Shown: positions 27,492-47,032 of the stretch, piece by piece
Numbering within the stretch: the first letter of the stretch is position 1
How the letters are laid out: each line of letters begins with the position of its first letter
Assembly: GCA_964505425.1 (NCBI GenBank)
Contig: CAZDHX010000006.1
Coordinates: 700-64,699, forward strand
Direction: 5' to 3'
Length of the DNA stretch: 64,000 nucleotides
Source: an uncultured Dehalococcoidales bacterium
Lineage (GTDB): Bacteria > Chloroflexota > Dehalococcoidia > Dehalococcoidales > BS750m-G39
Position numbers and translations under genes: made by a program
The notes under the pieces: model-generated
Told to the model about the DNA's origin: nothing
What the model saw: only the letters and a program-made list of their open reading frames with translations
Databases searched by the model: none

Positions 27492-28268
27492 TCACCTATC
27501 AATAGAGCTCCTTAAATTTCTTACCAATCTAGCCAGCGAAATAAAACCGTCTCTCTTCTCCATAAGCTGAATTATCCGACTGCCGACAATAATCCCGTCA
27601 GCTACCCGGGCCACCTGCCTTGCCTGCTCCGGGGTAGATATTCCGAAACCAACGCAGAGGGGCTGAGCGGCTGCCTTCCTCACCCTGGCGACAAACGCCT
27701 CTAGGTCCCCGGATAATCTCTGCCTAACCCCGGTAACCCCGGTTACTGAAACCATGTAGATAAACCCTCGCGACCTCTCAGCAACAAGCCTGATTCTCTC
27801 CTCAGTGCTGGTCGGAGCCAGGAGATAGATGAGGTCAAGCCCCTGCCTTCGGCTAATAGCCTCCAGTTCTGAGCCTTCCTCCGGGGGCAGGTCAGGAATG
27901 ATTAACCCGGAAATACCAGACTCAGCGCAGGCAGCGCAAAATGCTTTGAGACCATAGCTAAAGACGGGATTAAAATAGGTCATAAATACCAGTGGTATAT
28001 TGACCTTGCGGCTTAACTTGCTGGCTATCTCAAGGCAGAGCTGGGGGGTAACTCCATTCTGCAAGGCATGAAAGCTTGCCTTCTGTATGGTGACCCCATC
28101 AGCTAAGGGGTCAGAGAAGGGTATCCCCAGCTCCACAATATCACAGCCGCTATCGGCAAGGAGAGGGACTACCTCCAGGGTGGCTTCAACAGTGGGATAA
28201 CCGACGGTAACATAAGCAATAAGGGCTTTGTGACCCGGTAGGCTGAATACAGAAGCAATTCTGCTCAT
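27492..28268 (-). CDS. trpA: tryptophan synthase alpha chain
   Basis: 258 aa with motifs [13 protein letters not shown] and GFGIS. Confidence 0.9.
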
Positions 28269-29452
28269 GGCTTTACCCCCAGTGCTTGAGCTACTATGTC
28301 CATGTCCTTATCACCACGCCCGGAAAGGTTGACCACGATGATTTGCTCTTTCTCCAGCGAACCGGCCATCTTAGCCGCATAGAATATGGCGTGAGCCGGT
28401 TCCAGAGCGGGGGCAATGCCTTCGGTCTGGCACAGTAACTGAAAGCCCTCAAGGGCTTCCTCATCAGTTACCGCCACATAGGTGGCACGCCCGCTGCCCT
28501 TGAGGTAACTATGCTCAGGACCGACCCCGGGGTAATCAAGCCCGGCAGAGATGCTGTGCGTTTCCCTAATCTGACCATTGCTGCCTTGAAGAACATAGGA
28601 TTTTGTCCCGTGGAGCACCCCCACCCTCCCCACAGCCAGTGGGGCAGCATGTTCGCCGGTGTTAAGTCCCCTCCCTGCTGCCTCCACCCCGATAAGCTTA
28701 ACCTTCTTGTCATCTAAAAAGGGATAAAAAATGCCCATGGCATTGCTACCGCCGCCAACGCAGGCGATAATATAATCGGGCAGGCGACCTGATTTATCTA
28801 GAATCTGCTGCCTCGTCTCCTTGCCGATTACCGACTGAAAGTCGCGTACCATCACCGGATATGGATGGGGACCGACTACTGAACCAAGGAGGTAATAGGT
28901 TTCGCTGGGGTTGGTCACCCAGTCCCTTATCGCCTCATTAATAGCATCCTTCAGGGTGCGGCTGCCTGAGGAGACTGGCCTAACCTCAGCGCCCATCAGC
29001 CTCATCCGGAAGACATTGAGGGACTGGCGGCGCATATCCTCCTCCCCCATGTAGACGATACACTCCAGCTCCAGCATAGCACAGACGGCGGCGGCGGCTA
29101 CGCCGTGTTGCCCGGCTCCGGTCTCGGCGATTACCCTCCGCTTCCCCATTCTCCGAGCGAGAAGTCCCTGCCCTAGAGCATTATTAATCTTATGGGCTCC
29201 GGTGTGGGTCAGGTCTTCCCTCTTAAGGAAAATCCGGGCGCCACCGCAATTTTCGGTCAGCCTTTCGGCGAAGTAGAGTGGCGTTGGTCTCCCCGAATAA
29301 TCACGAGAAAGCGTTTCAAACTCAGCCCAGAAGGTTTTATCCGCCTTTGCCTCCTTGTAGGCTGTGGTCAGCTCATCCAGGACGGGCATGAGGGTCTCGG
29401 GGACAAACTGTCCCCCATAATCGCCAAAGTATCCCCTCTCATCAGGCAGCAT
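28265..29452 (-). CDS. trpB: tryptophan synthase beta chain
   Basis: 395 aa with motifs HTGAHKINN and GGGSNAMG. Confidence 0.95.
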
Positions 29453-30611
29453 CGTCCTTCTCCTGCTGTGACTTAATATAAGAGTTAAAATTGCGTTTCA
29501 TCTCGTCTATATGGTCGCCGCCAAATTTCTCAACCATTGCCTCGGCCAAGACCAGAGCCAGCATTGCCTCGGAGATAACCCCGCTTCTGGGAACGGCGCA
29601 GATGTCCGACCTCTCCACTTTGCTCGGCGCGGGGCGGTGGGTGGCGATATCTATCGTCTTTGCCGCCGCCCCAAGGGTTGAGAGCGGTTTATGGTAAACA
29701 CGGCAGACGATGTCCTCACCGTTGCTCATGCCGCCTTCTATCCCGCCCATGTTATTGGTCTGGCGCGCGAAACGATGACCTTTATATATAATTTTGTCCT
29801 GGAACTCGGAGCCAAACATAGCCGCGCCGGCGATGCCACCACCTATTTCCACCGCCTTCACCGAGGGGATGCTCATCAGGGCTTGGGTGAGCCTGCCGTC
29901 AAGCCGGCGGTCATAGTGCATAACACTCCCCAGCCCGACGGGCACGCCGGTGGCGATGACCTCGACCACCCCGCCGAGGGTATCCTTCCTGGCTCTAGCC
30001 TCAAGGATTAGCTGTTTCATTTTCCCGGATGTCTTGGGGTCGATACACCTTATATCGGGGTCGGTGGCAAAGACCCTGGCTACTTCTTCAAAGTCAGAGG
30101 GGTGATGGGTTAGTTTCACTGCTCCGATTTGCACGGTGTGGCTGGCGAGCCTGATACCAAATTCCAATAGCAGTTGTCTGACGACCGCCCCCGCCATAAC
30201 CCTCCCCACCGTCTCTCTGGCACTGGCTCTTTCCGAGATATTCCTGATATCGTCCTGGCCATATTTTAAGACACCGGCCAGGTCGGCGTGACCGGGACGG
30301 GGGGCGGTTACCTTAGCCGCTGGCTTTCTGGTCTCCTCAATCCTCATCTCATCCTGCCAGTTAGCAAAGTCCAGATTTCTGACGATAAGCGTAATCGGGC
30401 TACCCAGCGTCTTACCATAGCGGACGCCGGAGAGGATTTCAGCCTTGTCCTCCTCAATTTTCTCCCTGCCCCCGCGACCAAAATCGGAGTGCCGGCGTTT
30501 CAGGTCTTGATTAATATCCTCGACATTGGCTCTGACTCCGGCGGGCACCCCCTCAATAATGGCAATACAGGCCGGGCCGTGAGATTCACCGGCGGTCAAA
30601 ATGCGTAGCAT
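29442..30611 (-). CDS. aroC: chorismate synthase
   Basis: 389 aa. N-terminus [12 protein letters not shown] and the RPGHAD motif. Confidence 0.9.
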
Positions 30612-31914
30612 GTTTTTCTCCTTCCAAAGCCTGGGTCAGGGCAGACTCCATAACCCTTAGCGGGGCTTTGTGTCCGGTAAAGAGTTCAAACTGCGTCGCT
30701 GCCTGATAAAGAAACATCTTATAGCCGTAGACAACAGCACATCCCCTCTCTCTGGCTTCAGATAGTAATTTTGTCTCCTTCGGGTGGTAAACGATATCAA
30801 AGACGGTGAGCTTATTATGAAGGAGGTCTTGGGGTATAGGCGATTCGTTCGTTTTGGGCCACATTCCCACCGGGGTGGCGTTTATCAGGATATCCGCCGA
30901 GGAAATCTCGCCGAGCCTTTCTAAGCCCCCAAAATCCTCGGTGCCAAGCATCTCCGCCAGCTTCTTTGCCTTCTCCTCGGTGCGGTTCAGTATCACCAGC
31001 TCAGCCCCGCTCCTCCTTAAGCCCAGGGCGATAGCGGTGGCCGCTCCCCCGCCGCCGACAAGGACTGCCTTCTTGCCTTCGAGGGAAGTCGCCTCCTCCA
31101 GCGCCTTCAGTGCCCCCTGATAATCAGTGTTATAGCCGGTTAGGACACCCTCATCATTGACGATGGTATTGACGGCGCCGGTCTCTATGGCGACACGGTC
31201 AAACTTGTCGACATATTCCATAGCCCTGGCTTTATAGGGCATGGTAATGCTTGCCCCCCGAATTTTTAGTCCCCTTATGCCCTCTATCGCCCGCTTAAAG
31301 TCCTTGACCTGGAATGGGACGTACACATAGTCAATGCCCAGCGCCTGATAACCGGCATTATGAATTAATGGGGAAAGGGAGTGTTCCACCGGGTCGCCGA
31401 TAAGGCAACAGATTTTCTTTAGCGATTTTATAATGGCTTCAGCCACTTCTTCCGGTGTTTTGTTTTCGGTATCAACCACCAAAGCGGCGGCTTTCCGATA
31501 AAGCGCCTTTCGCTCTTTAAGCGTTATTTCAACATCTTCTCGCTGCGTCTTGCCCACCAGCAGCGGTCTCTGGCTGTCCTCCCCAATTCGCTCAAGTAGG
31601 GTATCAACGTCGGCTTTTAGCCAGACCAATATACTGTTTTTCTTGAGCCTCTGGATGTTTTTCTCTCTGGTTATTACCCCCCCGCCGCTGGCATTGATAA
31701 TGTTGTCCTGCTCAGCCACCTCACTGGTTACCTCCTCCTCTATATCCCGGAACTTTTCCCAGCCGTGTTTTTCCACAATCTCGGCGATGCTGAGCCCCGC
31801 CCTCCGGGCGATTAGCTCGTCCATCTCAACGAGCTCCCTGCCCAGCTTCCGGGCTAAAATTTTACCTACTGTTGTTTTCCCCGAGCCCCTCATGCCGATA
31901 AGGACGATGTTCAT
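30586..31914 (-). CDS. aroK/aroE: fused shikimate kinase (N-terminal) / shikimate 5-dehydrogenase (C-terminal)
   Basis: N-terminal P-loop GMRGSGKTT (AroK-like, ~170 aa), then IGDPVEHSLSPLIHN and GGGGAA Rossmann motifs (AroE-like). Confidence 0.8.
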   Translation of the reverse strand: MNIVLIGMRGSGKTTVGKILARKLGRELVEMDELIARRAGLSIAEIVEKHGWEKFRDIEEEVTSEVAEQDNIINASGGGVITREKNIQRLKKNSILVWLKADVDTLLERIGEDSQRPLLVGKTQREDVEITLKERKALYRKAAALVVDTENKTPEEVAEAIIKSLKKICCLIGDPVEHSLSPLIHNAGYQALGIDYVYVPFQVKDFKRAIEGIRGLKIRGASITMPYKARAMEYVDKFDRVAIETGAVNTIVNDEGVLTGYNTDYQGALKALEEATSLEGKKAVLVGGGGAATAIALGLRRSGAELVILNRTEEKAKKLAEMLGTEDFGGLERLGEISSADILINATPVGMWPKTNESPIPQDLLHNKLTVFDIVYHPKETKLLSEARERGCAVVYGYKMFLYQAATQFELFTGHKAPLRVMESALTQALEGEKHATHFDRR

Positions 31915-33200
31915 GATAGCTCCTCGATTTTTGCCCCCAGCTTTTTCAGGTCAGTGAAGAATTGGGGATAGGATTTACTGACCGCCTCAGCGCCGCTAAT
32001 AATAGAACCACCCTCGGCGAAGAGGGCGGCGATGGCAAAGCCCATCGCCAGGCGGTGGTCGGCGTGGACTTCAATTTCGGCTCCCTTTGGCTTACCGCCA
32101 TAGACTGTCATGGTATTCTCGGTAACATCGGTTCGTATTCCCATCTTGACCAACTCAGCAGCGACGTCACTGAGCCGGTCTGTCTCTTTAAACTTTAGAT
32201 GACCGATATTGTTTATCTTCGTTTTGCCATGAGCATAAGCAGCCACCACCGCTACCGTCGGGACAATATCAGGATAATCACCCATATCTACGGTGATGCC
32301 AGTAAGCTCCTTGTTACGAGAAATCCTCACCTGCTCTTCTTGGTGTTCAACGGAGCCCCCCATCTCGGAGAGGATGGTCAAGAGATGCCTATCGCCCTGC
32401 ACGGAATCAGCTTTTAGATTTTTTACCGTTACCGGCTTGCCGCCAATGGCGCCAGCGGCGAAAAAATAGGCGGCGGAGGAGTAATCCCCCTCTATTTGGT
32501 AGTCCCTGGCTTGATATTTTTGCCCGCCCTTAACTATAAATTCTTTATAGTCTTTATTTTCTGTCTCAACGCCGAAGGCTTGCATAACATCAATGGTTAT
32601 GTCTACGTATGGTCGGGAGTGAAGCCCGCCAGCAATCTTGATGCTAAGCCCCTCCTCGGTATAGGGGGCAATCATGAGCAGTGAGCTGATATGCTGCGAA
32701 CTCACCAGACCGGAGATTTCGACCTCGCCGCCGCTAAACCTCCCCCCTTGGATTTCAATTGGTGGGTAGCCGTTATTTTCCAGTGAGCGGGCGTGAACCC
32801 TCAGGCTTTCTAGCGCTGAGAGTAAATCACCTATCGGGCGCTGGCGAAGTCTACTATTGCCATCAAGGACAACCTTGGTCTGGCTTAGAGCTGCCATTGG
32901 GGCAACCATCCGGATGGTGCTCCCCGAGTTGCCAACAAAAATCCTTTGTCTATCAGGGGCGACCCTGATTTGACCGCCGGTGCCGATAATTTTTAGCCGG
33001 TCGCCCCTGAGTTCAATATCAGCTCCCAGGGAGCGGCAGGCATTGATGGTATAGAGGGTGTCATCTGACAGCAGCGGGTTTTCGATTATGCTCTCGCCCG
33101 CCGCCAGCGAAGCCACTATCACCGCCCGGTGGGTATAGCTCTTTGACGGCGGTGCCGAGACCTCTCCGCTCACTGAAGATGGCGTTATTCTTACTTTCAC
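31911..33200 (-). CDS. aroA: 3-phosphoshikimate 1-carboxyvinyltransferase (EPSP synthase)
   Basis: 429 aa with motifs PPSKSYTHR, LFVGNSGST and DHRLAM. Confidence 0.9.
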   Translation of the reverse strand: MKVRITPSSVSGEVSAPPSKSYTHRAVIVASLAAGESIIENPLLSDDTLYTINACRSLGADIELRGDRLKIIGTGGQIRVAPDRQRIFVGNSGSTIRMVAPMAALSQTKVVLDGNSRLRQRPIGDLLSALESLRVHARSLENNGYPPIEIQGGRFSGGEVEISGLVSSQHISSLLMIAPYTEEGLSIKIAGGLHSRPYVDITIDVMQAFGVETENKDYKEFIVKGGQKYQARDYQIEGDYSSAAYFFAAGAIGGKPVTVKNLKADSVQGDRHLLTILSEMGGSVEHQEEQVRISRNKELTGITVDMGDYPDIVPTVAVVAAYAHGKTKINNIGHLKFKETDRLSDVAAELVKMGIRTDVTENTMTVYGGKPKGAEIEVHADHRLAMGFAIAALFAEGGSIISGAEAVSKSYPQFFTDLKKLGAKIEELS

Positions 33201-33649
33201 TTGCCTTTCTTGCTCCTGATATGCTCAACCAAGGTTTTGAGCCCCAGAAGATAGCTTTGGGTTTTAAGGCCGGAAATCTGCTTGATAACCACGTCTGAAA
33301 TAACTGATATCTGGCGCCACTTCTCGCGGGCGTGGATGTCCGATAGGTGCACCTCAACCACCGGTAATCCGCAGTCAAGGAGGGCGTCATGTAGGGAGTA
33401 GCCGTAGTGGGCCAGGGCACCGGGGTTAATCAGGATACCGTCAGCGCCGCCTGCTTTCTCCTGGATAAAGTCGATAATACTGCCCTCGTGGTTAGACTGA
33501 AAGAAAGCCAGCTCGCAGCCCAGTGCTTTTCCTTTCTCAATGAGTGCTCTCTCTATTGATTCCAGGGTATCCGTGCCGTAGTGCTTGGCCTCTCTCCTGC
33601 CCAGCATATTCAGGTTGGGACCGTTAATCACCAGGATTCTCATCGGCAT
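33197..33649 (-). CDS. aroQ: type II 3-dehydroquinate dehydratase
   Basis: 150 aa with motifs INGPNLNMLGRRE and SNHEG. Confidence 0.9.
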   Translation of the reverse strand: MPMRILVINGPNLNMLGRREAKHYGTDTLESIERALIEKGKALGCELAFFQSNHEGSIIDFIQEKAGGADGILINPGALAHYGYSLHDALLDCGLPVVEVHLSDIHAREKWRQISVISDVVIKQISGLKTQSYLLGLKTLVEHIRSKKGK

Positions 33650-34809
33650 ATCTCCGTAAGAACTTTTCTGACCGAGCTCTCCGCCACCGGCTGGTCGACC
33701 ACCCCCTTACCAATGCCCTTCAATAATACCCAGCCCGTCTGACCGAGGGTTGTTTTCTTATCAAAACGGATGGCTTCAAGCAGTTCGTCTGGGTTTATTC
33801 CCTGACAACTAGTAGGCAAGCCGAACTTCAGCAGCAGGTTTTTGATTCTGGGGACATTGCCTGGGCTGAACATGCCGACCTGCTCACTTATCCTGGCGGC
33901 AGCCAGCATCCCGATAGCCACTGCCTCACCATGGCTCGGTCCATGGAGCTTGGCGGCAGCCTCAAGGGCATGACCGATGGTATGGCCGAAGTTAAGTATG
34001 GCTCGCTCGCCACTCCGCTCCGTCTCGTCCACCTCTACTATGCCGGCTTTCAAACGGCTACATCGCATAACGATATCCTTTAGTCCAGCAGTGCCGAGTT
34101 CCTTTTCTCCCTTCTGGTCAAGGGTGCGGAATAGCTCCTCGTCCATAGCCAGGGCGTACTTTATCACCTCAGCCATGCCGTTTCGTATCTCGGCTTGGGG
34201 TAAAGATTTCAAAAGGGCAACATCGCAGATAATCGCCCTCGGCTGGTAGAAGCTGCCGACCATGTTCTTCTTGCCGCCAAAATTGACCCCCACCTTGCCG
34301 CCGATGCTGCTGTCTACCTGGGCAAGAAGGGTGGTGGGCAGTTGAATATAATCAATCCCGCGAAGGTAGGTAGCGGCGATATAGCCGCTCGTGTCGCCAA
34401 CGACACCACCCCCGAGAGCACATATTATCCCTTTGCGGTCTACATTGTTCTTCAGCAGAAATTTGTACCCTCGTTCCATGGTGCTCATGGACTTGGCTTT
34501 TTCCCCCACCGGCAGGGTAAACGTGAGTGCTCTCTTTCCTGCTGACTTTAGTATTTGGAGCACATATTGTCCGTGGAGCCTTTTTACGTTGGTATCGGTT
34601 ATCAGGACGATGTTGGAATAGCCGCTGAAGTCAAAATACCGCTCAAGTTGCTTTATAATGCCGTCACCGACGATAATTGGACAGCGCTTAACCGCCTGTA
34701 TCTTGATAATATGGCTGTTATATTTTGTCGAGCTCTCTCTTCTCCCAGACATCGTCTTGCCACTCATCCCTCTCATGTTTAGACGTCGAGAAAAACGACC
34801 GAAGACCAT
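33640..34809 (-). CDS. aroB: 3-dehydroquinate synthase (true start probably an internal Met, e.g. near 34752)
   Basis: Motifs GGGVVGD and the HGEAVAIG metal site. The longest ORF overlaps the end of tyrA by ~90 nt, so the start is uncertain. Confidence 0.85.
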   Translation of the reverse strand: MVFGRFSRRLNMRGMSGKTMSGRRESSTKYNSHIIKIQAVKRCPIIVGDGIIKQLERYFDFSGYSNIVLITDTNVKRLHGQYVLQILKSAGKRALTFTLPVGEKAKSMSTMERGYKFLLKNNVDRKGIICALGGGVVGDTSGYIAATYLRGIDYIQLPTTLLAQVDSSIGGKVGVNFGGKKNMVGSFYQPRAIICDVALLKSLPQAEIRNGMAEVIKYALAMDEELFRTLDQKGEKELGTAGLKDIVMRCSRLKAGIVEVDETERSGERAILNFGHTIGHALEAAAKLHGPSHGEAVAIGMLAAARISEQVGMFSPGNVPRIKNLLLKFGLPTSCQGINPDELLEAIRFDKKTTLGQTGWVLLKGIGKGVVDQPVAESSVRKVLTEICR

Positions 34810-35923
34810 CAGCGTTTTCCTGCGAGATTAATTCTTCAACTGTGGTTAGTGTTGCCCAGAGTGAAGCCATAGCTTTCAGGATGTTGTCCCGATTAGTAAT
34901 ACAGATGTCAGTATACATCCCGGGGTCACCACTGGCAAGACGACTCATATCACGAAAACCGGTTGCTGCCAATTTCTTTGCCTCCGGCCACGAACTGTGC
35001 TTGGCGGCAGTGAATACCAGGCAAGCTGATATAAGGAAGGGAAGATGGCTGACCCAGGCAACATGCTGGTCATGCTCAGAGGCAGGTATAACCTTCTCTT
35101 CAGCGCCAATAATGTTGATAAGTTGCCTGGCGGCGGTGATGGCAGCGGTATTTGTCTTCCCGTTCGGTGTTATCGCAAATAGGCGCTGCCGGAACAGGTT
35201 TTCATCGGCGGATTCTGGTGAGGCGTTCGTTTTGCCGGCTAGAGGATGACCACCAACAAACAAGGCGTGCTGGGGGAGGATGCTATCTGCCCATTGGCAG
35301 ACCTGTTCTTTTGAGCCGCCGACATCAATAATTACGGCCCCACTTTTGACGTGTGGTGCAATTTGCGCTAGTACTTGCTTCATCGCTCTAACCGGTACGG
35401 CTATCACTACCAGCTCTGCCTGCCTGACACAATCAGCTGGATTGTCGGCTATTTGGTCAATAGCTCCCCTAGCTAAGACCCACTCGGTCTTAGCAGGGTT
35501 GGCATCAAAACCGGTGATTTCGCAATTGGCCCCGGCTTTCTTCAAAGCCAGACAGATAGAGGTTCCAATGAGCCCAAGCCCGATAACCGCAATTTTCTTA
35601 TCGTCGAACCAGCTCAACTTGTCAGCACCTCTATACATATCCTTCTGAATTTGGAGCGACTCATTTATAATGAGCTTGAATATGTTCTCAATGGAGTGAC
35701 GGCTGATAACGGAAGCCTGGGCTACTTGTGACATGACCTGTTTCTCCCTGGCCATATCTTCAACTGGTAAGTTGTGCCTGGCCTTGTGCCTGCCTATTTC
35801 TCGTACCAGTTTGAACCTTTGATCAAGAAGTTCGATAATCTGGTAATCACACTGGTCAATCTTGGCTCTCAGATGTTCGAGGTTAAAATCATTATCTTGG
35901 CAAGTCCCCATTGTTATCACCAT
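34718..35923 (-). CDS. tyrA: bifunctional chorismate mutase (AroQ class) / prephenate dehydrogenase
   Basis: N-terminal ~90 aa match CM_2 (LEHLRAKIDQCDYQIIELLDQRFKLVREIGRHK). This is followed by the Rossmann motif VIGLGLIG and a PDH core. Confidence 0.8.
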   Translation of the reverse strand: MVITMGTCQDNDFNLEHLRAKIDQCDYQIIELLDQRFKLVREIGRHKARHNLPVEDMAREKQVMSQVAQASVISRHSIENIFKLIINESLQIQKDMYRGADKLSWFDDKKIAVIGLGLIGTSICLALKKAGANCEITGFDANPAKTEWVLARGAIDQIADNPADCVRQAELVVIAVPVRAMKQVLAQIAPHVKSGAVIIDVGGSKEQVCQWADSILPQHALFVGGHPLAGKTNASPESADENLFRQRLFAITPNGKTNTAAITAARQLINIIGAEEKVIPASEHDQHVAWVSHLPFLISACLVFTAAKHSSWPEAKKLAATGFRDMSRLASGDPGMYTDICITNRDNILKAMASLWATLTTVEELISQENADGLRSFFSTSKHERDEWQDDVWEKRELDKI

Positions 35924-36791
35924 CTATCTTCCTGCCCACAGCTTTAGCAACTCTGGCTAGAACGGGCATGGATTTCTTGAGTTCACCAATCGAGATTGTC
36001 TGAGCAGCGTCGCTCTTTGACTCTTGTGGGTGGAGGTGAGCCTCGATGAGAAGACCATCAGTGCCACAGGCAATGGCTGCTTTGCTCATATCGATAACCA
36101 AACTAGCGTTGCCGGTTCCATGGCTGGGGTCAACTATTATGGGGAGATGGGTCTGTTGTCTCAGATAGGGCACGGCACTGAGGTCAAGGGTGAATCGTAA
36201 CTCGTCTACCCAACTTCTAATCCCCCGCTCACACAGAATAACTTTTTCGTTACCCCCAACCATAATATACTCAGCGGCTAGCAAGAACTCTCTGTAAGTT
36301 GCGCTCATGCCACGCTTCAGGACCACCGCTGTCCTACTCTTACCCACTTCGCGTAGAAGCGGAAAGTTTTGCATGCTCCTGGCACCAATCTGAAGAATAT
36401 CGGCAAAATTAGCCACTAGTTCCACATCCCTCGGGTCAAGGACCTCGGTAATGACCTTAAGTCCGGTTAGCTTGGAAGCACGTTTAAGGTATTCTAGCCC
36501 TTCCCTCCCCAACCCCTGGAAATCGTGGGGCGACGTCCTGGGCTTGTAGGCACCACCTCGTAGCGTACTGACCCCTATGTTCTTGAGCTTTTTGGCTATA
36601 GAGATTATCTGCTCTTCATTTTCCACTGAACATGGTCCGGCCATTATTACAATTCGATTACCACCTATCTTTACTCCATCGCCGATGTCAATAATGGTGG
36701 TATCCTGCTCAGTGTTACCACTGGCGCACTTATGCCGTCTGGCTACCGCCAGTACTGGGGGCTCCCTGTTTATAGTATTTTGATGACTCAT
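35892..36791 (-). CDS. aroF: 3-deoxy-7-phosphoheptulonate (DAHP) synthase, type I-beta, no ferredoxin-like regulatory domain
   Basis: 299 aa with motifs MAGPCSVE, RGGAYKPRTSP and IVDPSH. First gene behind the leader/attenuator. Confidence 0.85.
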   Translation of the reverse strand: MSHQNTINREPPVLAVARRHKCASGNTEQDTTIIDIGDGVKIGGNRIVIMAGPCSVENEEQIISIAKKLKNIGVSTLRGGAYKPRTSPHDFQGLGREGLEYLKRASKLTGLKVITEVLDPRDVELVANFADILQIGARSMQNFPLLREVGKSRTAVVLKRGMSATYREFLLAAEYIMVGGNEKVILCERGIRSWVDELRFTLDLSAVPYLRQQTHLPIIVDPSHGTGNASLVIDMSKAAIACGTDGLLIEAHLHPQESKSDAAQTISIGELKKSMPVLARVAKAVGRKIDGDNNGDLPR

Positions 36792-36850
36792 AGCTTTAAC
36801 TCCTCCAAATTACCCTTAATGGTTCTTTCTCGACTTTCGGTTTAATCCTG

Positions 36851-36886
36851 ATAAAATAAGAGAACCCTCCCACTTAGGAGGGTTCT
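36851..36886 (-). terminator. attenuator terminator: 10-bp hairpin AGAACCCTCC/GGAGGGTTCT followed by CTTATTTTAT
   Basis: Read on the minus strand, 36886..36861 forms the hairpin (loop TAAGTG). A U-rich tract follows at 36860..36851. Lies 60 nt upstream of the aroF ATG. Confidence 0.6.
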
Positions 36887-36972
36887 TGTTTGACTTGGAC
36901 TAATTTTGGCTTATTTCTAACTAGCTCTTGTCATACTTCACGCAAAGCCTCCCAAGTGGTTTCGGCACCACC
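36870..36972 (-). promoter_or_regulatory. alternative antiterminator / anti-antiterminator pairings of the aro leader
   Basis: CCACTTGGGAGG (36959..36948) pairs over 12 bp (one G-U) with CCTCCTAAGTGG (36881..36870), which overlaps the terminator 5' arm and loop. GGTGGT (36972..36967) can pair with ACCACT (36960..36955). Confidence 0.55.
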
Positions 36973-37026
36973 GGCAGTAAAATAATAGCTAAAAAACCAA
37001 TCTTGAGAGACAATGTAACTTAACAT
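36931..37026 (-). CDS. putative aromatic-codon-rich leader peptide (31 aa) of the aro operon
   Basis: ATG at 37026, TGA at 36933..36931. Translation MLSYIVSQDWFFSYYFTAGGAETTWEALREV, with the codon run TGG TTT TTT AGC TAT TAT TTT at 36999..36979. Confidence 0.6.
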   Translation of the reverse strand: MLSYIVSQDWFFSYYFTAGGAETTWEALREV

Positions 37027-37055
37027 CTTTATTCAGCTCATCTAAAGCGTAGGTA

Positions 37056-37084
37056 ACAATAGCACAAAACGTATCACCTGTCAA
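37056..37084 (-). promoter_or_regulatory. promoter TTGACA-17-TATTGT for the aro leader and operon
   Basis: Minus strand: TTGACA (37084..37079, overlapping the TGA stop of the upstream DAHP synthase gene), 17-nt spacer, TATTGT (37061..37056). Confidence 0.5.
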
Positions 37085-38085
37085 CTAGGTGAGTTCTTAA
37101 GGCTCTTTATCTCCTGCATTAGTTCGGCAAACTGTTCCGGGTAGAGGGACTGCATACCGTCGGAGAGGGCGTGCGGCGGGTCGTGGTGCACCTCCACCAG
37201 GAGACCATCAGCACCGACGGCGATGGCGCCCCTTGACAGAGAAATAACATAGTCCCGTTTTCCGGCGGCATGGCTGGGGTCAACTATAATCGGTAAATGG
37301 CTGACCTCCTTGATTGAGGGGATGGCGCTCAGGTCAAGGGTATTCCTGGTGTTGTCGGTGAAGGTGCGTATTCCTCGTTCGCACAGGATAACCTGGTTAT
37401 TCCCCTCAGAGCTGATATATTCCGCCGACATCAGTAATTCTTCAATGGTTGCCGCAAAACTGCGCTTGAGGAGGACTGGCTTTGAGGTATGCCCCGCCCG
37501 GCGGAGCAGGGAGTAATTTTGCATGTTCCTGGCGCCAATCTGAATGATATCGGTGTATTGTTCCACAAGTTCAATATTGGTATGGTCAGTGGCCTCGGTT
37601 ACGATTAGCAACCCGGTTTCTCTGCGGACCTTGTTCAGTATTTTCAGCCCTTCCTCACCCAGCCCCTGGAAGCTATAGGGTGAGGTTCTGGGCTTGAAGG
37701 CACCCCCCCGAAATACCTGTGCCCCGTATTTCTTCACCAGGCGGGCGATGGTGAGGGCTTGCTCCTCGCTCTCTACGGCGCAGGGACCAGCCATTACTAC
37801 CGGTTTGCCTTCGCCAATCTTGATATCACCAATGGCGATAACCGTAGGCTGGGGACGAGCCTCCCGGCTTACCAGTTTATAGGGTTTGGTTACACGGATG
37901 GCTTCTTTTACGCCATCCATGACAAGCAGCCGTGAATCGTCAATCGGACCGGTGTTGCCGATGATGCAGACCGCCGTGCGCAGGGCGCCGGGCATGGGCA
38001 CGCCACGGAAACCCATGCTCTCTATTGTACGGATGACTGCCTGCACCTGCTCTTCAGTAGCGTCATTTTTCATTACCACCAGCAT
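37081..38085 (-). CDS. aroF: DAHP synthase, type I-beta, with N-terminal ferredoxin-like (ACT-like) regulatory domain
   Basis: 334 aa. The N-terminal ~70 aa (MLVVMKNDATEEQVQAVIRTIESMGF...) resemble the Thermotoga-type FL domain. Core motifs MAGPCAVE, RGGAFKPRTSP and IVDPSH. Confidence 0.85.
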   Translation of the reverse strand: MLVVMKNDATEEQVQAVIRTIESMGFRGVPMPGALRTAVCIIGNTGPIDDSRLLVMDGVKEAIRVTKPYKLVSREARPQPTVIAIGDIKIGEGKPVVMAGPCAVESEEQALTIARLVKKYGAQVFRGGAFKPRTSPYSFQGLGEEGLKILNKVRRETGLLIVTEATDHTNIELVEQYTDIIQIGARNMQNYSLLRRAGHTSKPVLLKRSFAATIEELLMSAEYISSEGNNQVILCERGIRTFTDNTRNTLDLSAIPSIKEVSHLPIIVDPSHAAGKRDYVISLSRGAIAVGADGLLVEVHHDPPHALSDGMQSLYPEQFAELMQEIKSLKNSPS

Positions 38086-42676: not shown

Positions 42677-42975
42677 GTAAAAAAATTAACCTCTCGCCTA
42701 TAGGGGCGAGAGGTTAAATCCTTCGCGGTGCCACCCTAATTAGTTGTCAATTGACAACTATCTCATTCAGGTACAGCCATTCATAAGTGAAGGGCGATAC
42801 CCTGGGCTCTGATAACGGTGCCCTTTCCGACGAAACCTACTTATCCTTTCGGTTTGCAGCTCCCGAGTCCATTCAACCCCTGCGCTGGCACCGGCTTCCA
42901 CCTACCCCGGCTCTCTGCGCCTCGCTGGAGGCATACTAGTCTCGTTCTCAGCCTTTATTCTATATTCAGTTTGGA
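42677..42975 (-). promoter_or_regulatory. T-box riboswitch leader, Trp-specific (specifier UGG)
   Basis: Minus strand: AGAGAG, specifier loop GAA-UGG-A (UGG at 42871..42869), F-box CCGTTA (42818..42813), T-box AATTAGGGTGGCACCGCG (42741..42724), then a terminator. Confidence 0.85.
42678..42717 (-). terminator. T-box terminator hairpin TTAACCTCTCGCC/GGCGAGAGGTTAA followed by U7
   Basis: 13-bp stem (42717..42705 / 42698..42686) followed on the minus strand by TTTTTTT. Confidence 0.8.
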
Positions 42976-43084: not shown

Positions 43085-43161
43085 TGGTGGGCGGTAGAGG
43101 ACTTGAACCTCTGACCCCCTGCGTGTAAAGCAGGTGCTCTAACCAACTGAGCTAACCGCCC
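43085..43161 (-). tRNA. tRNA-Val (anticodon UAC), CCA encoded
   Basis: Cloverleaf folded by hand. Acceptor GGGCGGT/ACCGCCC, anticodon loop TTTACAC, T-loop TTCAAGT. Confidence 0.9.
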
Positions 43162-43163
43162 CA

Positions 43164-43240
43164 TGGTGCGCTTGGCGGGTCTCGAACCCACAACCTCAGC
43201 CTCCGCAGGGCTGCGCTCTATCCTGTTGAGCTACAAGCGC
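43164..43240 (-). tRNA. tRNA-Arg (anticodon GCG), CCA encoded
   Basis: Acceptor GCGCTTG/CAAGCGC, anticodon stem CAGCC/GGCTG, loop CTGCGGA, T-loop TTCGAGA. Confidence 0.8.
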
Positions 43241-43257
43241 TCAAAAGCCTAAAAATG

Positions 43258-43340
43258 TGCCGAGGGGGAGATTTGAACTCCCACATCCTTACGGACACTA
43301 CGTCCTGAACGTAGCGCGTCTGCCATTCCGCCACCTCGGC
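43258..43340 (-). tRNA. tRNA-Leu (anticodon CAG), class II long variable arm, CCA not encoded
   Basis: Acceptor GCCGAGG/CCTCGGC, anticodon loop TTCAGGA, 15-nt variable arm, T-loop TTCAAAT. Confidence 0.85.
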
Positions 43341-43465: not shown

Positions 43466-43870
43466 CTATCGCTTGGTGTATTGAGGCGCCTTGCGCGCTC
43501 GCCTGAGACCAGCCTTCTTTCTCTCTTTGACCCGTGAGTCCCTGGTCAGCAGCTTATGCTGGCGCAGTACCGGCCTGAGGCTCTCGTCAGCCGCTACCAG
43601 GGCTCGGGCAATACCGTGAGAGATGGCGCCACCCTGCCCTGATATGCCACCCCCCTCTACCTTAACCACGGCATTGTACTTGCCCATGTTTTCCGTAACC
43701 AAAAGCGGCTTCAGTATTATTCGGCGGTGCTCAGGGTAAGGGAATAGCTTTTCGTAGGGGGTGCCATTGACAATAATCTCACCCGCCCCCGGTATCAATT
43801 TTACCCGGGCTACCGCCTCCTTGCGCCGGCCGGTGCCATAATAATATTTTTTCTTCTCGGTTTGAACCAC
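43466..43870 (-). CDS. rpsI: 30S ribosomal protein S9
   Basis: 134 aa. C-terminus ..KKAGLRRARKAPQYTKR. Follows rplM. Confidence 0.95.
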   Translation of the reverse strand: MVQTEKKKYYYGTGRRKEAVARVKLIPGAGEIIVNGTPYEKLFPYPEHRRIILKPLLVTENMGKYNAVVKVEGGGISGQGGAISHGIARALVAADESLRPVLRQHKLLTRDSRVKERKKAGLRRARKAPQYTKR

Positions 43871-44308
43871 CTAGTTCTCGGCCCCCTTTGTCCTGGCCTT
43901 GGGCTGAGCCGGTTGAGGATGAGCCTCACCGACATAGACCCTGAGCCGTTTCATCATGCCGTCCCGGAGGCGATTTTTGGGCAACATCCCCTTGACGGCG
44001 TATTCAATCACCCGGGTGGGGTCAGTCTGTGATAATTTCTCCAGGCTGATGCTCTTAAGTCCCCCGGGATATCCGGAATGTCTATAGTATAGCTTCTGCT
44101 TGGTTTTATTGCCAGTAACCTTGACCTTTTCGGCGTTGGTGATGACAACAAAATCGCCGCTGTCCAGATGGCGGGTGAATATCGGCTTGTGCTTGCCCAT
44201 GAGCAAGCCCGCCGCCTCGGTGGCGACCTTGCCCAGAATCTTGCCCGAGGCATCAATGGTATGCCATTGGCGCTTAATCTCGGAGGCTTTAGTGCTATAG
44301 GTCTTCAT
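43871..44308 (-). CDS. rplM: 50S ribosomal protein L13
   Basis: 145 aa. N-terminus [20 protein letters not shown]. Confidence 0.95.
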
Positions 44309-45072
44309 GCTTTACTCCCCAGGTGATTGGGGTAATTTATCCGGGTAAGATATAGTCCGCAGGCGGGGGCAGTTGGTCCTGCCATCCCCGGCTTTTTCGC
44401 CTCAATTATACTATTAAATTCATCGGCGTTCATCTTGCCAAGGGCAACCCTGATGAGACAGCCAACCGTGTTGCGCACCTGATGAGGCAGGAAGGAATTA
44501 GCCACCATATTGAAGGTAACCGCTTCCCCTCCTCTTTCAAAACTGGCTTTGAAGACGTGCTTCACCGTGTTCCTTATCTCCACCCCGTTAGAGCTGGCAA
44601 ATGAGGTAAGGTCGTGCTCACCAATGAGAGCCTGGGCTGCCCGATTGGCGGCTTCAATATCCATAGGGCTGGCAACTAAGTGAGAAGAGCCCTCTCTGAT
44701 TGGCGAGCGGATGGGGCTATTTAATATGTAGTAGCTATATTCCCGGCTGGTGGCATCACGCCTGACATTAAACGAGTCATCCACTTTATAGGCTGCCTTT
44801 ACGGCAATATCCCGCGGCAAATAGTAGTTCAGCCCGTTTACGAATGTTCGGGTGGGGAGGGAGGAATCTGTTCTGAAGCTTGCCACCTGCCCCCTGGCGT
44901 GGACTCCAGCATCGGTACGGCTGGCGGCCATCACCCGGCACCTCTCCCCAGTAAGCTTCTTTATGGCTTTTTCCAGTTCCCGCTGAATGGAGGACAAGCC
45001 AGTCTGCCACTGGAAGCCGTGGTAGTTTGTGCCATCATATTCTATAATCAATACAATCTTTTTAGTCTTCAT
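44305..45072 (-). CDS. truA: tRNA pseudouridine(38-40) synthase
   Basis: 255 aa. [12 protein letters not shown] and the SRTDAGVHA catalytic Asp motif. Confidence 0.9.
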
Positions 45073-45419
45073 ACCAGCTCAATTTTAATCATCGGCGCCC
45101 CATCGCCCGGTCTTGGGCCTAACTTGATGATGCGAGTATATCCCCCCTGGCGCTCAGCATACCTGGGAGCAAGCTCGGCGAACACCTTCTCCGTTACCTT
45201 CTCATCCAGGATAAAGGAGAGTGCCTTGCGGCGGGAGGGGAGCCCCCCCTTCTTACCCAGGGTAATCATCTGCTCCGCCAGACTGCGTATTTCCTTAGCC
45301 TTGGCTTCGCTGGTGGTAATCTTCTCGTAGTTTAGCAGGTCGGTCACCAGGTTGCGGTAAAGCGCCTTGCGGTGAGCCGAAGACCGCCCCAGTTTTCTCC
45401 CCGCTACCTTGTGTCTCAT
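45069..45419 (-). CDS. rplQ: 50S ribosomal protein L17
   Basis: 116 aa. N-terminus [20 protein letters not shown]. Confidence 0.95.
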
Positions 45420-46384
45420 ATCGCTGGCTCCTCCACCTCGCCCTCTTCCTCAGCGACGGGGGTAAGGGATAAGTCCAGCGCCTCCAGACGCTCCATTACC
45501 TCTCGCATGGACTTCTGCCCGAAGTTATGCAGTGAGAGCAGCTCCCTCTCCCCCTTGCTTATGAGCTCGCCCACGGTGTTGATGCTACCCCGTCTCAGGC
45601 AATTCATGGTACGCACCGAAAGCTCCAGTTGGTCCACCGGCATATTATATTTTTCATCGGGGATGGAGGCGCGAACAAGCTGTTTTTCTGCCTCAATGCG
45701 GGAAACGCGGGCATAATCAATAAATGGAGCCAGCTGCTCGGTCAGAATGCGGGCGCTCTGGCTGATGGCTTCTTCCGGTGAGATGGTGCCATCGGTCCAT
45801 ACCTCCAGCTCCAGCCGCTCATGGCTTGTCTCCCGACTGACGTGGGTTGGCTCAACGGTAAAATTGACCTTGCGTATCGGGGCAAAGAGGGCATCTATCG
45901 GAATCGCCCCTATCGGCAGGTTATCACTGGGCTCAGCCTCACGATAGCCTTCGCCCAGTTCAACATCAAACTCAATATAGAGCTTGGCTTCGGGTGAATC
46001 TAAGGTAGCCAGATAAAGCTCAGGGTTGGCAATTTCAAAGTCGGTTGACGGCTCAATGTCAGCCGCCGTAACTCGCCCCTCCCCCTCCACCTTCAGTATC
46101 AACTTACCCGGTTGACCGGAAAGGGGCTTTAAGCGCAGCGCCTTAACATTGAGCAGAAACTCGGTGACGTCTTCCTTGACATAGGGGATGGTGGAGAATT
46201 CATGCTGAATTCCCTCAATGGTAACCCGGGTCACTGCTGCCCCGGGAAGGTAGCCAAGGAGAGCTCGCCGCAGGGCGTTGCCCAGGGTAACGCCAAAGCC
46301 CTTTTCCAGGGGCTCAGCCCTGAAGCGTCCAAAGTTATCTTCACCTTCAATACACTCAATCTTAGCTAAGGCTAGATTGGACAA
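45416..46384 (-). CDS. rpoA: DNA-directed RNA polymerase alpha subunit
   Basis: 322 aa. GNALRR motif, C-terminal helix-hairpin-helix [11 protein letters not shown]. Position after rpsD. Confidence 0.95.
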
Positions 46385-46401
46385 GGTGCCACCTCCTCAA
46401 C

Positions 46402-47028: not shown

Positions 47029-47032
47029 CTGC

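What the first reader, a model, noticed from the sequence alone, without database searches (positions are those of the whole stretch)
36851..37084. Leader-peptide transcription attenuator with a mixed Trp/Phe/Tyr codon run upstream of the shikimate (aro) operon
The 289-nt gap between the two DAHP synthase genes contains a full attenuator on the minus strand. (i) A TTGACA-17-TATTGT promoter at 37084..37056. (ii) A 31-codon ORF (37026..36931) encoding MLSYIVSQDWFFSYYFTAGGAETTWEALREV. Eight of its 31 residues are aromatic, and TGG TTT TTT AGC TAT TAT TTT at 36999..36979 puts six aromatic codons within seven consecutive codons. (iii) A segment inside the ORF, CCACTTGGGAGG (36959..36948), pairs over 12 bp (one G-U) with CCTCCTAAGTGG (36881..36870). 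(iv) That second segment overlaps the 5' arm and loop of a 10-bp GC hairpin, AGAACCCTCC/GGAGGGTTCT, which is followed by CTTATTTTAT, so the two structures are mutually exclusive. (v) GGTGGT (36972..36967) can pair with ACCACT (36960..36955) as a weak anti-antiterminator, about 7-19 nt downstream of the last Phe codon and therefore partly under a stalled ribosome. This is the classical trpL/pheL logic. Here, though, a single leader senses all three aromatic amino acids and sits in front of a 9-gene operon: aroF, CM-tyrA, aroB, aroQ, aroA, aroK/E, aroC, trpB, trpA. As far as I know, ribosome-mediated attenuation has been described mainly in Proteobacteria and a few other phyla, not in Chloroflexota-like genomes. 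The weak point is that the leader ATG lacks a strong SD.
Basis: partly seen in the sequence, partly recalled or inferred. Interest (0 to 1): 0.8.

Follow-up and report, generated by a model that had tools for sequence, protein, structure and literature searches.

The report
Aromatic leader-peptide attenuator before aro operon
A short upstream reading frame packed with Trp, Phe and Tyr codons, followed by an RNA switch and a terminator, very probably turns the shikimate/tryptophan operon of this Dehalococcoidia bacterium on when charged aromatic tRNAs run low; the mechanism is textbook, but this family is absent from Rfam, I found no paper on it, and it recurs before many different operons.

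Summary
The interpretation, a ribosome-mediated transcription attenuator, is strongly supported by comparative evidence. The 31-codon ORF, its aromatic run, the antiterminator and the terminator recur upstream of orthologous DAHP synthase genes down to 62% protein identity.

A pattern covering only region 2 and the terminator core found at least 120 metagenomic loci. Of 116 testable loci, 57% carry an upstream small ORF with at least 5 aromatic residues in 8, against 1.6% after shuffling. The conserved TGGGAGG block is read in all three frames, so it is conserved as RNA and the run as codons. Helices 2:3 and 3:4 show compensatory changes.

RNAalifold finds this helix on its own. The stop codon always lies just past region 2, and the run always lies before it.

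The same scaffold carries Leu/Ile codons before ilvE and Phe-rich codons before pheS.

The kind is known: trpL, pheL, Corynebacterium aroR before aroF, and the Acholeplasma uORFC-13-1 motif. Similar aromatic leaders precede DAHP synthase in many phyla. I class it as a new member of a known kind, with moderate interest.

The parts
37056..37084 (-). Promoter of the leader transcript: -35 TTGACA (37084..37079), 17-nt spacer, extended -10 TGcTATTGT (37064..37056). The inferred transcription start is near 37049, giving a 5' UTR of about 23 nt.
   Evidence: scores it 10 of 12 with TG. A TTGACA, 17-18 nt, TGnTAnnnT promoter sits 5-28 nt upstream of the leader AUG in nearly all window-type family members. 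The start site is inferred, not shown.
36931..37026 (-). Leader ORF of 31 codons plus TGA, encoding MLSYIVSQDWFFSYYFTAGGAETTWEALREV. It has no strong SD (-1.9 kcal/mol, against -9.3 for aroF').
   Evidence: The AUG is invariant in 26 of 26 aligned leaders. Independent gene callers called a 31-aa ORF at the same place in L082 and L086.
37002..37011 (-). Region 1, GUCUCUCAAG (codons 6-9). It pairs with region 2 as the anti-antiterminator and lies directly 5' of the aromatic run.
   Evidence: It is part of the MFE fold. RNAalifold predicts the helix independently. 95.4% of cells are paired, against 58-70% when slid. Fourfold-degenerate third positions are restricted to C or U.
36979..36999 (-). 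Regulatory codon run: TGG TTT TTT AGC TAT TAT TTT (W F F S Y Y F).
   Evidence: Runs are conserved as aromatic codons with free synonymous variation and are enriched 57% against 1.6% over shuffles.
36955..36972 (-). Small hairpin GGUGGU-GCCGAA-ACCACU between the run and region 2. Its 3' arm overlaps the 5' end of region 2.
   Evidence: Alignment-free folding finds an equivalent hairpin ending at (C)UUGGGAGG in about 21 of 26 members, with different arm sequences. Its role is inferred: a pause site, or a lock that a stalled ribosome melts.
36947..36959 (-). Region 2, CCACUUGGGAGGC. Positions 36956..36947 pair with region 1, or positions 36959..36948 pair with region 3.
   Evidence: TGGGAGG is read in all three frames across the family. 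Free positions 5' of it covary with the terminator loop.
36870..36881 (-). Region 3, CCUCCUAAGUGG: the upper 5' arm, the loop and the first two bases of the 3' arm of the terminator. It pairs with region 2 as the antiterminator (12 bp, -18.5 kcal/mol).
   Evidence: One search gives the energy. Compensatory G-C to A-U and U-A to C-G changes occur at loop positions that the terminator does not constrain.
36851..36886 (-). Intrinsic terminator: 11-bp stem AGAACCCUCCU/GGGAGGGUUCU (36886..36861, -19.0 kcal/mol) followed by CUUAUUUUAU (36860..36851).
   Evidence: 98.2% of cells are paired, and 5 pairs have compensatory changes.
27492..36791 (-). Regulated operon: aroF' (299 aa, lacks the N-terminal domain), CM-tyrA, aroB, aroQ, aroA, aroK-aroE, aroC, trpB, trpA. 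The SD GGAGGA is at 36806..36801.
   Evidence: NCBIfam hits above the cut-offs. The genes overlap or abut. The leader stays with aroF' in relatives whose upstream gene differs.

Best explanation
This is a ribosome-mediated (leader-peptide) transcription attenuator.

Transcription starts at the TTGACA/TGcTATTGT promoter, or reads through from the upstream T-box-controlled trpEGDCF-aroG unit. A ribosome then translates the 31-codon leader.

When charged tRNA-Trp, tRNA-Phe and tRNA-Tyr are plentiful, the ribosome runs through region 2 to the UGA, which lies 15 nt past it, and occludes region 2. Without translation, region 1 pairs with region 2. In either case region 3 is left free to pair with region 4. 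The terminator forms and transcription stops near 36852, before aroF'.

When a charged aromatic tRNA is scarce, the ribosome stalls on W10-F16. There it covers or sterically blocks region 1 and opens the small hairpin. Region 2 stays free, 20 or more nt ahead of the ribosome. Region 2 then pairs with region 3 as soon as region 3 is transcribed. The terminator cannot form, and RNA polymerase reads into aroF'-tyrA-aroBQA-aroKE-aroC-trpBA.

Shown here: the sequence elements, their conservation, the covariation, the geometry and the gene association. Inferred: translation of the leader, stalling, the kinetic choice between helices, and which of the three amino acids actually matter.
For: 1. All elements are present.

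2. The leader ORF and the run are conserved upstream of orthologous aroF' at 96, 80, 78 and 77% identity, and upstream of stand-alone DAHP synthases at 67 and 62% identity in GC-rich genomes.

3. In L083 and L087 the frame after the run differs from the window's while the CTTGGGAGG nucleotides are kept. Across 66 leaders TGGGAGG falls in frames 0/1/2 in 22/16/28 cases. Both synonymous codons are used: TTT 101 and TTC 55; TAT 138 and TAC 63.

4. Among 116 loci retrieved with a pattern covering only region 2 and the terminator core, 57% have an ORF with at least 5 aromatic residues in 8, against 1.6% in shuffles and 0.9% on the reverse complement.

5. Antiterminator covariation at positions the pattern left free, in 69 leaders: U-A 45, C-G 17, U-G 4, with 3 mismatches; and G-C 60, A-U 5, G-U 3, with 1 mismatch. 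On alignment A2 the 2:3 helix is 92.6% paired, with 0 of 500 shuffles reaching the observed score.

6. The terminator is 98.2% paired, with 5 compensatory pairs.

7. The 1:2 helix is 95.4% paired and RNAalifold predicts it unaided. Ala and Ser third positions in region 1 are never A or G, against backgrounds of 30% and 48%.

8. Geometry: the stop codon ends 5-37 nt past TGGGAGG (median 12). The last aromatic codon ends 13-31 nt before it (median 20).

9. Folding: the free RNA gives 1:2 plus the terminator. A nascent RNA ending at 36872..36868 with a ribosome mask gives 2:3.

10. Natural codon swap: the same scaffold carries NLLSLIIIL before ilvE and FYFGFTF before pheS, and W/F/Y, F/W or F/Y runs before DAHP synthase in 29 loci.

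11. The leader follows aroF', not the upstream gene.
Against: - There is no experimental evidence for a transcript 3' end, for leader translation or for a response to amino acids.
- The leader has no recognisable SD, so translation initiation is assumed from the invariant AUG.
- At equilibrium the terminator is always favoured, even with the ribosome mask (-49.9 against -41.4 kcal/mol). The switch must therefore be kinetic. From my own knowledge that is also true of trpL, but it was not shown here.
- The 1:2 helix shows only one-sided changes, because my search pattern fixed region 2.
- The sequences are phylogenetically related and came through a pattern that fixes much of helices 2-4. Some counts are therefore inflated by shared ancestry.
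- The U tract is interrupted (CUUAUUUUAU).
Confidence: 0.86

Rival explanations
1. The hairpin is simply the terminator of the upstream trpEGDCF-aroG transcription unit, with a long 3' UTR. The operon downstream has its own unregulated promoter, and the small ORF is a chance product of a T-rich spacer.
For: The terminator lies about 195 nt downstream of the aroG stop codon and would also stop read-through from upstream. A T-rich spacer favours TTT and TAT codons.
Against: The whole element stays with aroF' in relatives where the upstream gene is trpF (L087) or an unrelated 147-aa ORF (L083). It also occurs before stand-alone DAHP synthases. A conserved promoter sits upstream of the leader, not downstream of the terminator. 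Shuffles that preserve composition give aromatic runs in only 1.6% of cases, against 57% observed. The antiterminator covaries.
Confidence: 0.03
2. The RNA is a ligand- or tRNA-binding switch, such as a divergent T-box or a riboswitch for an aromatic compound, or the target of an RNA-binding protein such as TRAP. The ORF is not translated.
For: The same genome uses a T-box for trpE. The leader lacks an SD. Regions 2-4 are highly conserved in sequence.
Against: No T-box or riboswitch match appears in the gap even at E up to 10. Rfam claims none of the 14 other Dehalococcoidia-type family loci tested. The longest chain of (G/U)AG triplets has 2 members, no more than in shuffles. What is conserved is an invariant AUG plus an in-frame aromatic run with synonymous variation, and the frame is not kept after the run. 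That pattern is what decoding predicts, not ligand binding. The codon run changes with the pathway.
Confidence: 0.04
3. The leader acts through its nascent peptide, as TnaC or SecM do. The conserved N-terminal M-L-x-Y-I-A-S-Q-D and the aromatic stretch would arrest the ribosome in response to a free amino acid or another signal, rather than to tRNA charging. The arrested ribosome then drives the same RNA switch.
For: The N-terminal residues are well conserved in the window-type subfamily. Long runs of aromatic residues are slow to translate. The RNA switch downstream would work the same way.
Against: Pairing of region 1 with region 2 accounts for the N-terminal conservation. Third positions are limited to pairing-competent bases, and amino-acid replacements keep the pair. 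Other subfamilies have unrelated N-termini (MHNQ..., MLDQ..., MLTNTAW...) with the same logic. The run changes to Leu/Ile before ilvE, which fits codon sensing.
Confidence: 0.05

Closest known systems
Escherichia coli trpL and pheL (Rfam Trp_leader RF00513, Phe_leader RF01859), the classical leader-peptide attenuators
   Same: Both have a short ORF with a cluster of cognate codons, then four segments forming 1:2, 2:3 and 3:4 helices and an intrinsic terminator. A stalled ribosome favours 2:3. A terminating ribosome, or the absence of translation, favours 3:4. The energies are similar in pattern, with a weak 1:2 and a terminator at least as stable as the antiterminator (trpL values are from my own knowledge).
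   Different: There is no sequence homology. Phe_leader scores 25.8 bits against a cut-off of 55, and only the terminator aligns. The run mixes W, F and Y. The regulatory codons lie just 3' of region 1 rather than inside it. There is an extra small hairpin before region 2. There is no SD and the 5' UTR is short. The element controls the common shikimate pathway plus tyrA and trpBA, not a single terminal branch.
Corynebacterium glutamicum aroR leader upstream of aroF (Neshat et al. 2014, as described in PMC11802643 and PMC4046766)
   Same: Both are leader-peptide attenuators in front of a DAHP synthase gene, with mixed aromatic codons (Phe-Tyr-Phe).
   Different: The phylum differs (Actinobacteria). 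The run has three codons, against six aromatic codons in seven here. There is no Trp codon. Only Phe limitation was reported to matter (PMC11802643). I could not compare the sequences, as none was on hand.
uORFC-13-1 motif upstream of aroF in Acholeplasma (PMC8632094)
   Same: Both are a candidate uORF with Phe codons directly followed by an intrinsic terminator, found exclusively upstream of the 3-deoxy-7-phosphoheptulonate synthase gene.
   Different: It is restricted to Acholeplasma and environmental sequences, has 24 representatives and is based on a U run coding for at least one Phe.
T-box leader (RF00230), present in the same cluster at 42958..42699
   Same: Both sense the tRNA charging state and decide between a terminator and an antiterminator upstream of aromatic amino acid genes.
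   Different: A T-box binds uncharged tRNA directly and needs no translation. The gap studied here has no T-box features.

Membership tests
Leader-peptide (ribosome-mediated) transcription attenuators, as a mechanistic class | A short ORF with a start codon and an in-frame cluster of codons for the end-product amino acids of the regulated pathway | tested here: met
   The 31-codon ORF has W F F S Y Y F. The AUG is invariant in 26 of 26 leaders. The run is enriched 57% against 1.6% over shuffles. Run type tracks the downstream gene.
Leader-peptide (ribosome-mediated) transcription attenuators, as a mechanistic class | An intrinsic terminator between the leader ORF and the first structural gene | tested here: met
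   An 11-bp GC-rich stem plus a U-rich tail at 36886..36851. The stem covaries, with 5 compensatory pairs and 98.2% of cells paired.
Leader-peptide (ribosome-mediated) transcription attenuators, as a mechanistic class | An antiterminator helix that shares bases with the terminator and is mutually exclusive with it | tested here: met
   The 12-bp 2:3 helix uses the upper 5' arm and the loop of the terminator. Compensatory changes occur at loop positions.
Leader-peptide (ribosome-mediated) transcription attenuators, as a mechanistic class | An anti-antiterminator (1:2) whose 5' segment lies where a ribosome stalled on the regulatory codons blocks it | tested here: met
   Region 1 at 37011..37002 ends 3 nt before the run. 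The helix is 95.4% paired and RNAalifold predicts it. A ribosome mask at W10-Y14 removes 1:2. That a ribosome blocks it is inferred from the footprint size.
Leader-peptide (ribosome-mediated) transcription attenuators, as a mechanistic class | The stop codon is placed so that a non-stalled ribosome occludes region 2 | tested here: met
   The stop codon ends 5-37 nt past TGGGAGG (median 12) in 66 leaders, and never before it.
Leader-peptide (ribosome-mediated) transcription attenuators, as a mechanistic class | Read-through depends on leader translation and on the supply of charged cognate tRNA | not testable with these tools
   This needs reporter fusions, Term-seq or in vitro transcription-translation.
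Rfam Phe_leader (RF01859) | A score at or above the gathering threshold of 55 bits over the whole model | tested here: not met
   25.8 bits, E = 0.16, and only the terminator aligns. The proteobacterial control L155 scores 137.8 bits.
T-box leader (RF00230) | A match to the covariance model, covering stem I, the specifier loop and the T-box sequence | tested here: not met
   No T-box hit in 36000..38000 at E up to 10. The true T-box of the window scores 110 bits.
TRAP-regulated leaders | Nine to eleven (G/U)AG triplets separated by 2-3 nt | tested here: not met
   The longest chain has 2 triplets, against a shuffle mean of 1.6 and maximum of 4.
aroR (Corynebacterium) and uORFC-13-1 (Acholeplasma) leaders before aroF | Sequence or structure homology to those motifs | not tested
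The resemblance is functional only (PMC11802643, PMC8632094).

The most novel reading that the evidence does not exclude
Dehalococcoidia may carry a modular attenuator cassette. It would consist of one promoter, an SD-less AUG, region 1, a small hairpin, UUGGGAGG and a CCUCCYARGYRGGAGG terminator. The cassette would have been duplicated in front of at least ten kinds of operon and retargeted by exchanging only the codon run. The operons include DAHP synthases, pheS, ilvE, ABC and TRAP binding proteins, CoA-transferases, MBL hydrolases and AMP-ligases. If so, leader peptides form a lineage-wide amino-acid-starvation regulon that reaches transport and possibly catabolic genes, in genomes that encode few transcription factors.
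Probability: 0.45. Interest if true: 0.6.

Novelty: new member of a known kind. Interest (0 to 1): 0.48.

Why it matters
- It extends classical ribosome-mediated attenuation to Chloroflexota (class Dehalococcoidia). I found no report of it there; only T-boxes had been described in that class.
- It defines a sequence family that is absent from Rfam 15. The family could be added to Rfam as a model and used to annotate MAGs.
- The same scaffold appears with aromatic, Phe-rich and Leu/Ile runs before matching genes. That is a natural codon-swap experiment. It also offers a way to guess the substrates of the uncharacterised transporters, CoA-transferases, MBL hydrolases and AMP-ligases that follow such leaders in uncultured organisms.
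- In this cluster a Trp T-box and a W/F/Y leader attenuator act in series. The DAHP synthase without the N-terminal domain is the one under attenuation, which suggests a split between allosteric and transcriptional control.
- F/Y/W leaders precede DAHP synthase in about half of 78 loci from other phyla. This suggests the regulatory theme is much more common than the two published cases imply.

Tried and rejected
- **Rfam, permissive scan of the gap.** Only a sub-threshold Phe_leader hit on the terminator, so I rejected T-box and riboswitch readings.
- **GTDB scan with aroF'.** It found no close relative (best 57% identity). It was not useful for orthologous leaders, but it later showed aromatic leaders in other phyla.
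- **P0006 contig.** No DNA was available.
- **P0008 locus L088.** It has only a 62-nt gap and no leader.
- **Exact cluster look-ups.** They returned no organism names, so taxonomy came from SecY homologs.
- **Lopatovskaya et al. 2010.** This survey of attenuation across bacteria could not be read. I cannot exclude that it lists Chloroflexi cases.
- **First fold script.** It had region 1 off by one base and gave a wrong 1:2 energy. I corrected this.
- **First window pattern search.** A gap limit one base too short gave no match. I corrected this, which finds only this copy in the window.
- **Equilibrium folding with a ribosome mask.** It never prefers the antiterminator for the full-length RNA. 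Only nascent-length folds do, so thermodynamics alone does not demonstrate the switch.
- **Shuffle control for 1:2.** It is uninformative because the search pattern fixed region 2.
- **TRAP-type triplet array.** Rejected.
- **Covariance model.** I did not build one. The alignment-based tests seemed sufficient.
Full report
**1. The observation**

- Promoter: TTGACA (37084..37079), 17-nt spacer, TATTGT (37061..37056), preceded by TG at 37064..37063.
- Leader ORF: 31 codons, 37026..36931, encoding MLSYIVSQDWFFSYYFTAGGAETTWEALREV.
- Aromatic run: TGG TTT TTT AGC TAT TAT TTT at 36999..36979.
- Antiterminator: CCACTTGGGAGG (36959..36948) is complementary over 12 bp, one of them G-U, to CCTCCTAAGTGG (36881..36870).
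- Terminator: 36886..36861, followed by CTTATTTTAT.

Upstream lie trpE, trpG, trpD, trpC, trpF and a full-length DAHP synthase of 334 aa. Downstream lie a 299-aa DAHP synthase that lacks the N-terminal domain, then CM-tyrA, aroB, aroQ, aroA, aroK-aroE, aroC, trpB and trpA.

**2. Known RNA families do not explain the gap**

A permissive Rfam scan of 36000..38000 gives no T-box or riboswitch. It gives only a sub-threshold Phe_leader hit (25.8 bits against a cut-off of 55) that aligns just the terminator. The window does hold a true T-box at 42958..42699, upstream of trpE, with a UGG specifier. A TRAP-type triplet array is absent.

**3. Organism**

All named SecY homologs at 83-86% identity come from Dehalococcoidia or Dehalococcoidales MAGs. 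Named DAHP synthase homologs at 63-65% identity are also Dehalococcoidia. The GTDB representatives I could scan hold no close relative of aroF' (best 57%).

**4. Conservation in orthologous positions**

I fetched contigs encoding aroF' relatives.

| Locus | aroF' identity | Leader peptide |
|---|---|---|
| L082 | 96% | same peptide with one substitution |
| L084-L086 | 77% | MLSYIASQDWFFSYYFAAGGVETTWEALRKV |
| L083 | 80% | MLNYIASQDLFYSYYYWWFRWCENHLGGFV |
| L087 | 78% | MFSYSASQDLFYSYYYWWAVKRLGGFVVS |
| L089 | 67% (stand-alone gene, GC-rich genome) | ...HSYYFYFWFSTLL... |
| L091 | 62% (stand-alone gene, GC-rich genome) | ...VQVWFSFWFSPPF... |

- In L083 and L087 the aromatic run is kept, but the frame downstream differs from the window's while the nucleotides CTTGGGAGG are retained.
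- L089 and L091 also have a C(C/T)TGGGAGGG segment and a matching terminator.
- The leader stays with aroF' whatever lies upstream: aroG in L084, trpF in L087 and an unrelated ORF in L083.

**5. A family, found through the RNA alone**

I scanned metagenome contigs with TGGGAGG N{40,70} CCTCCYARGYRGGAGG. This pattern says nothing about the ORF.

- Of 116 loci with enough upstream sequence, 57% have a small ORF with at least 5 aromatic residues in 8. The figure is 1.6% after dinucleotide shuffling of the upstream 170 nt and 0.9% on its reverse complement.
- In 66 non-proteobacterial aromatic leaders, TGGGAGG is read in frames 0/1/2 in 22/16/28 cases. Both synonymous codons are used freely: TTT 101 and TTC 55; TAT 138 and TAC 63.
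- So the run is selected as codons and region 2 as RNA.
- Three hits (L155, L196, L201) are the proteobacterial pheL-pheA leader. L155 scores 137.8 bits for Phe_leader, while none of 14 other family loci is claimed by Rfam.

**6. The three helices**

*Antiterminator (2:3).* The pattern left free the bases 5' of TGGGAGG and the Y/R choices in the terminator loop.
- In 69 leaders these covary: U-A 45, C-G 17, U-G 4 with 3 mismatches; and G-C 60, A-U 5, G-U 3 with 1 mismatch.
- On a MAFFT alignment of 26 window-type leaders (A2), 2:3 is 92.6% paired, against 52-60% when slid. It has a G-C/A-U swap without mismatches, and 0 of 500 shuffles reach the observed score.

*Terminator (3:4).* It is 98.2% paired, with five compensatory pairs.

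GUCUCUCAAG (37011..37002) pairs with CUUGGGAGGC (36956..36947).
- This helix is in the MFE fold, is 95.4% paired across A2, and RNAalifold predicts it unaided.
- Its variation is one-sided, because the pattern fixed region 2.
- Region 1 is nevertheless constrained as RNA. The Ala and Ser third positions are never A or G (0 of 21 and 0 of 18), against backgrounds of 30% and 48%. Amino-acid replacements keep the pair.

A stem ending right at (C)UUGGGAGG occurs in about 21 of 26 members, with different arm sequences.

**7. Geometry and energetics**

- In the window-type leaders, region 1 occupies ORF nt 14-27 and the run starts at about nt 28.
- Across the family the last aromatic codon ends 13-31 nt before TGGGAGG (median 20). 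The stop codon ends 5-37 nt after it (median 12), and never before it.
- A stalled ribosome therefore leaves region 2 free, and a terminating ribosome covers it.
- Energies for the window: 1:2 is -11.4, 2:3 is -18.5 and 3:4 is -19.0 kcal/mol.
- The free transcript folds into 1:2 plus the terminator (-59.0 kcal/mol).
- With a ribosome mask on F12, the nascent RNA ending at 36872..36868 folds into 2:3.
- At full length the terminator always wins. The choice must be kinetic, as in the classical systems. This step is inferred.

**8. Leader type tracks the gene**

| Run type | Downstream gene (loci) |
|---|---|
| W/F/Y, F/W or F/Y | DAHP synthase (29) |
| Tyr-dominated | CoA-transferase III, MBL-fold hydrolase |
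| FVFT(E/K/R)RT | AMP-binding enzyme of about 640 aa (9) |
| N-L-L-S-L-I-I-I-L (L124) | class IV aminotransferase (ilvE type) |
| F-Y-F-G-F-T-F (L176, truncated by the contig end) | pheS |

L124 has the same start, region 1, hairpin, region 2 and terminator as the aromatic leaders. That amounts to a natural codon-swap experiment.

**9. Promoter and initiation**

Nearly all window-type members have TTGACA, 17-18 nt, TGnTAnnnT placed 5-28 nt upstream of an invariant AUG. None has a strong SD: the energy is 0 to -5.5 kcal/mol, against -9.3 and -12.0 for aroF' and aroG. The weak SD is therefore a conserved trait. How these leaders are initiated is open.

**10. Comparison with what is known**

The logic is that of trpL and pheL. 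Precedents for a leader before a DAHP synthase gene exist:
- aroR (Phe-Tyr-Phe) in Corynebacterium glutamicum, where only Phe limitation mattered (PMC11802643, PMC4046766);
- the uORFC-13-1 motif in Acholeplasma (PMC8632094).

T-boxes on trpE are known in Dehalococcoides (PMC2494555). I found no paper on leader-peptide attenuation in Chloroflexi, but one relevant survey could not be read.

In addition, 42 of 78 GTDB loci encoding this class of DAHP synthase carry an upstream F/Y/W-run ORF. The controls are 13 of 78 on the reverse complement and 5 of 77 in stretches downstream of the gene. Of the 42, 30 have a terminator-like hairpin within 160 nt. The lineages include Geomonas, Thermodesulfovibrio, Ignavibacteria, Clostridia, Deferribacteres and Planctomycetota.

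**11. Verdict**

The mechanism is textbook, so I class it as a new member of a known kind. What is worth keeping:
- a large family absent from Rfam, in a phylum for which I found no published report of this mechanism;
- the reuse of one scaffold before many operons;
- the serial arrangement of a T-box and a leader attenuator in one aro/trp cluster.

Noticed in passing
window 42699..42958 (-): A T-box leader (110 bits) with a UGG (Trp) specifier lies upstream of trpE-trpG-trpD-trpC-trpF-aroG. Two different sensors of tRNA charging, a T-box and a leader peptide, therefore act in series in one aro/trp cluster. T-boxes on trpE are already reported for Dehalococcoides (PMC2494555).
   Followed up: partly
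window 37081..38085 (-) and 35892..36791 (-): There are two adjacent DAHP synthases. The 334-aa one has the N-terminal domain (PF18152 in the L084 ortholog) and belongs to the T-box unit. The 299-aa one lacks that domain (its NCBIfam match starts at profile position 62) and is the one behind the attenuator. This may be a split between allosteric and transcriptional control.
   Followed up: no
window 37074..37092 (-): A 6-bp hairpin, TCACCTAGTTGACAGGTGA, followed by TACGTTTTGT overlaps the aroG stop codon and the -35 box of the leader promoter. It is also present in L084-L086. It could be a weak terminator for the upstream unit, or it could be incidental.
   Followed up: no
L002-L081 (GTDB loci encoding DAHP synthase), about 50-400 nt upstream of the gene: 42 of 78 loci from other phyla carry a small ORF with a dense F/Y/W run, and 30 of those have a terminator-like hairpin after it. 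Examples are FYFWYGFYF in Geomonas, YYFWFGFYFK in Thermodesulfovibrio, FYFYFYFYF in Ignavibacteria and YNYYYYFTNVK in Clostridia. Their sequences are unrelated to the Dehalococcoidia scaffold.
   Followed up: partly
L122, L128, L132, L137, L152, L193, L198 and others (leader just upstream of the pattern match): A leader class with the motif F-V-F-T-(E/K/R)-R-T uses the same region 2 and terminator. It precedes AMP-binding enzymes of about 640 aa in 9 loci. Leaders with FFFFFFF runs precede the same kind of gene. It is unclear which amino acid is sensed and what the enzyme does.
   Followed up: no
L093, L103, L106, L111, L115, L120, L146, L162 and others: Tyr-dominated leaders such as YYYTYFT and YYYAYYF precede CoA-transferase family III genes and MBL-fold hydrolase genes. 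These are not obvious amino acid biosynthesis genes, so they may act in aromatic compound metabolism.
   Followed up: no
L089, L091, L101, L127, L168, L170, L187, L204 (GC-rich subfamily): In leaders starting MHNQ... or MLDQ..., the segment that pairs with region 2 includes the leader's own AUG (AUGCAUAACCAGG...). The 1:2 helix would therefore also hide the leader start codon.
   Followed up: no
L091 about 1990..2250: Three or more tandem copies of a unit of about 66 nt (CTCTCCCTTGAGGGAGAGGACTAAGGAAATGCTGGCACTTTCGCCCGTCCTTATCAACTCTCCT) lie upstream of the leader promoter.
   Followed up: no
L148 3140..3396 and L199 6725..6981: T-box leaders occur on the same contigs as leader-peptide attenuators that precede ABC transporter binding proteins. 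The two systems therefore coexist widely in these organisms.
   Followed up: no
window 43085..43340 (-), 43466..63239 (-), 63565..64000 (+): A tRNA-Val, tRNA-Arg, tRNA-Leu cluster is followed by what look like ribosomal-protein operons. SecY and RpoA are named by cluster members; S12, S7, EF-G and L2 are assigned by position and size only. The 5' end of a 23S rRNA gene follows with no 16S gene next to it in the window.
   Followed up: no
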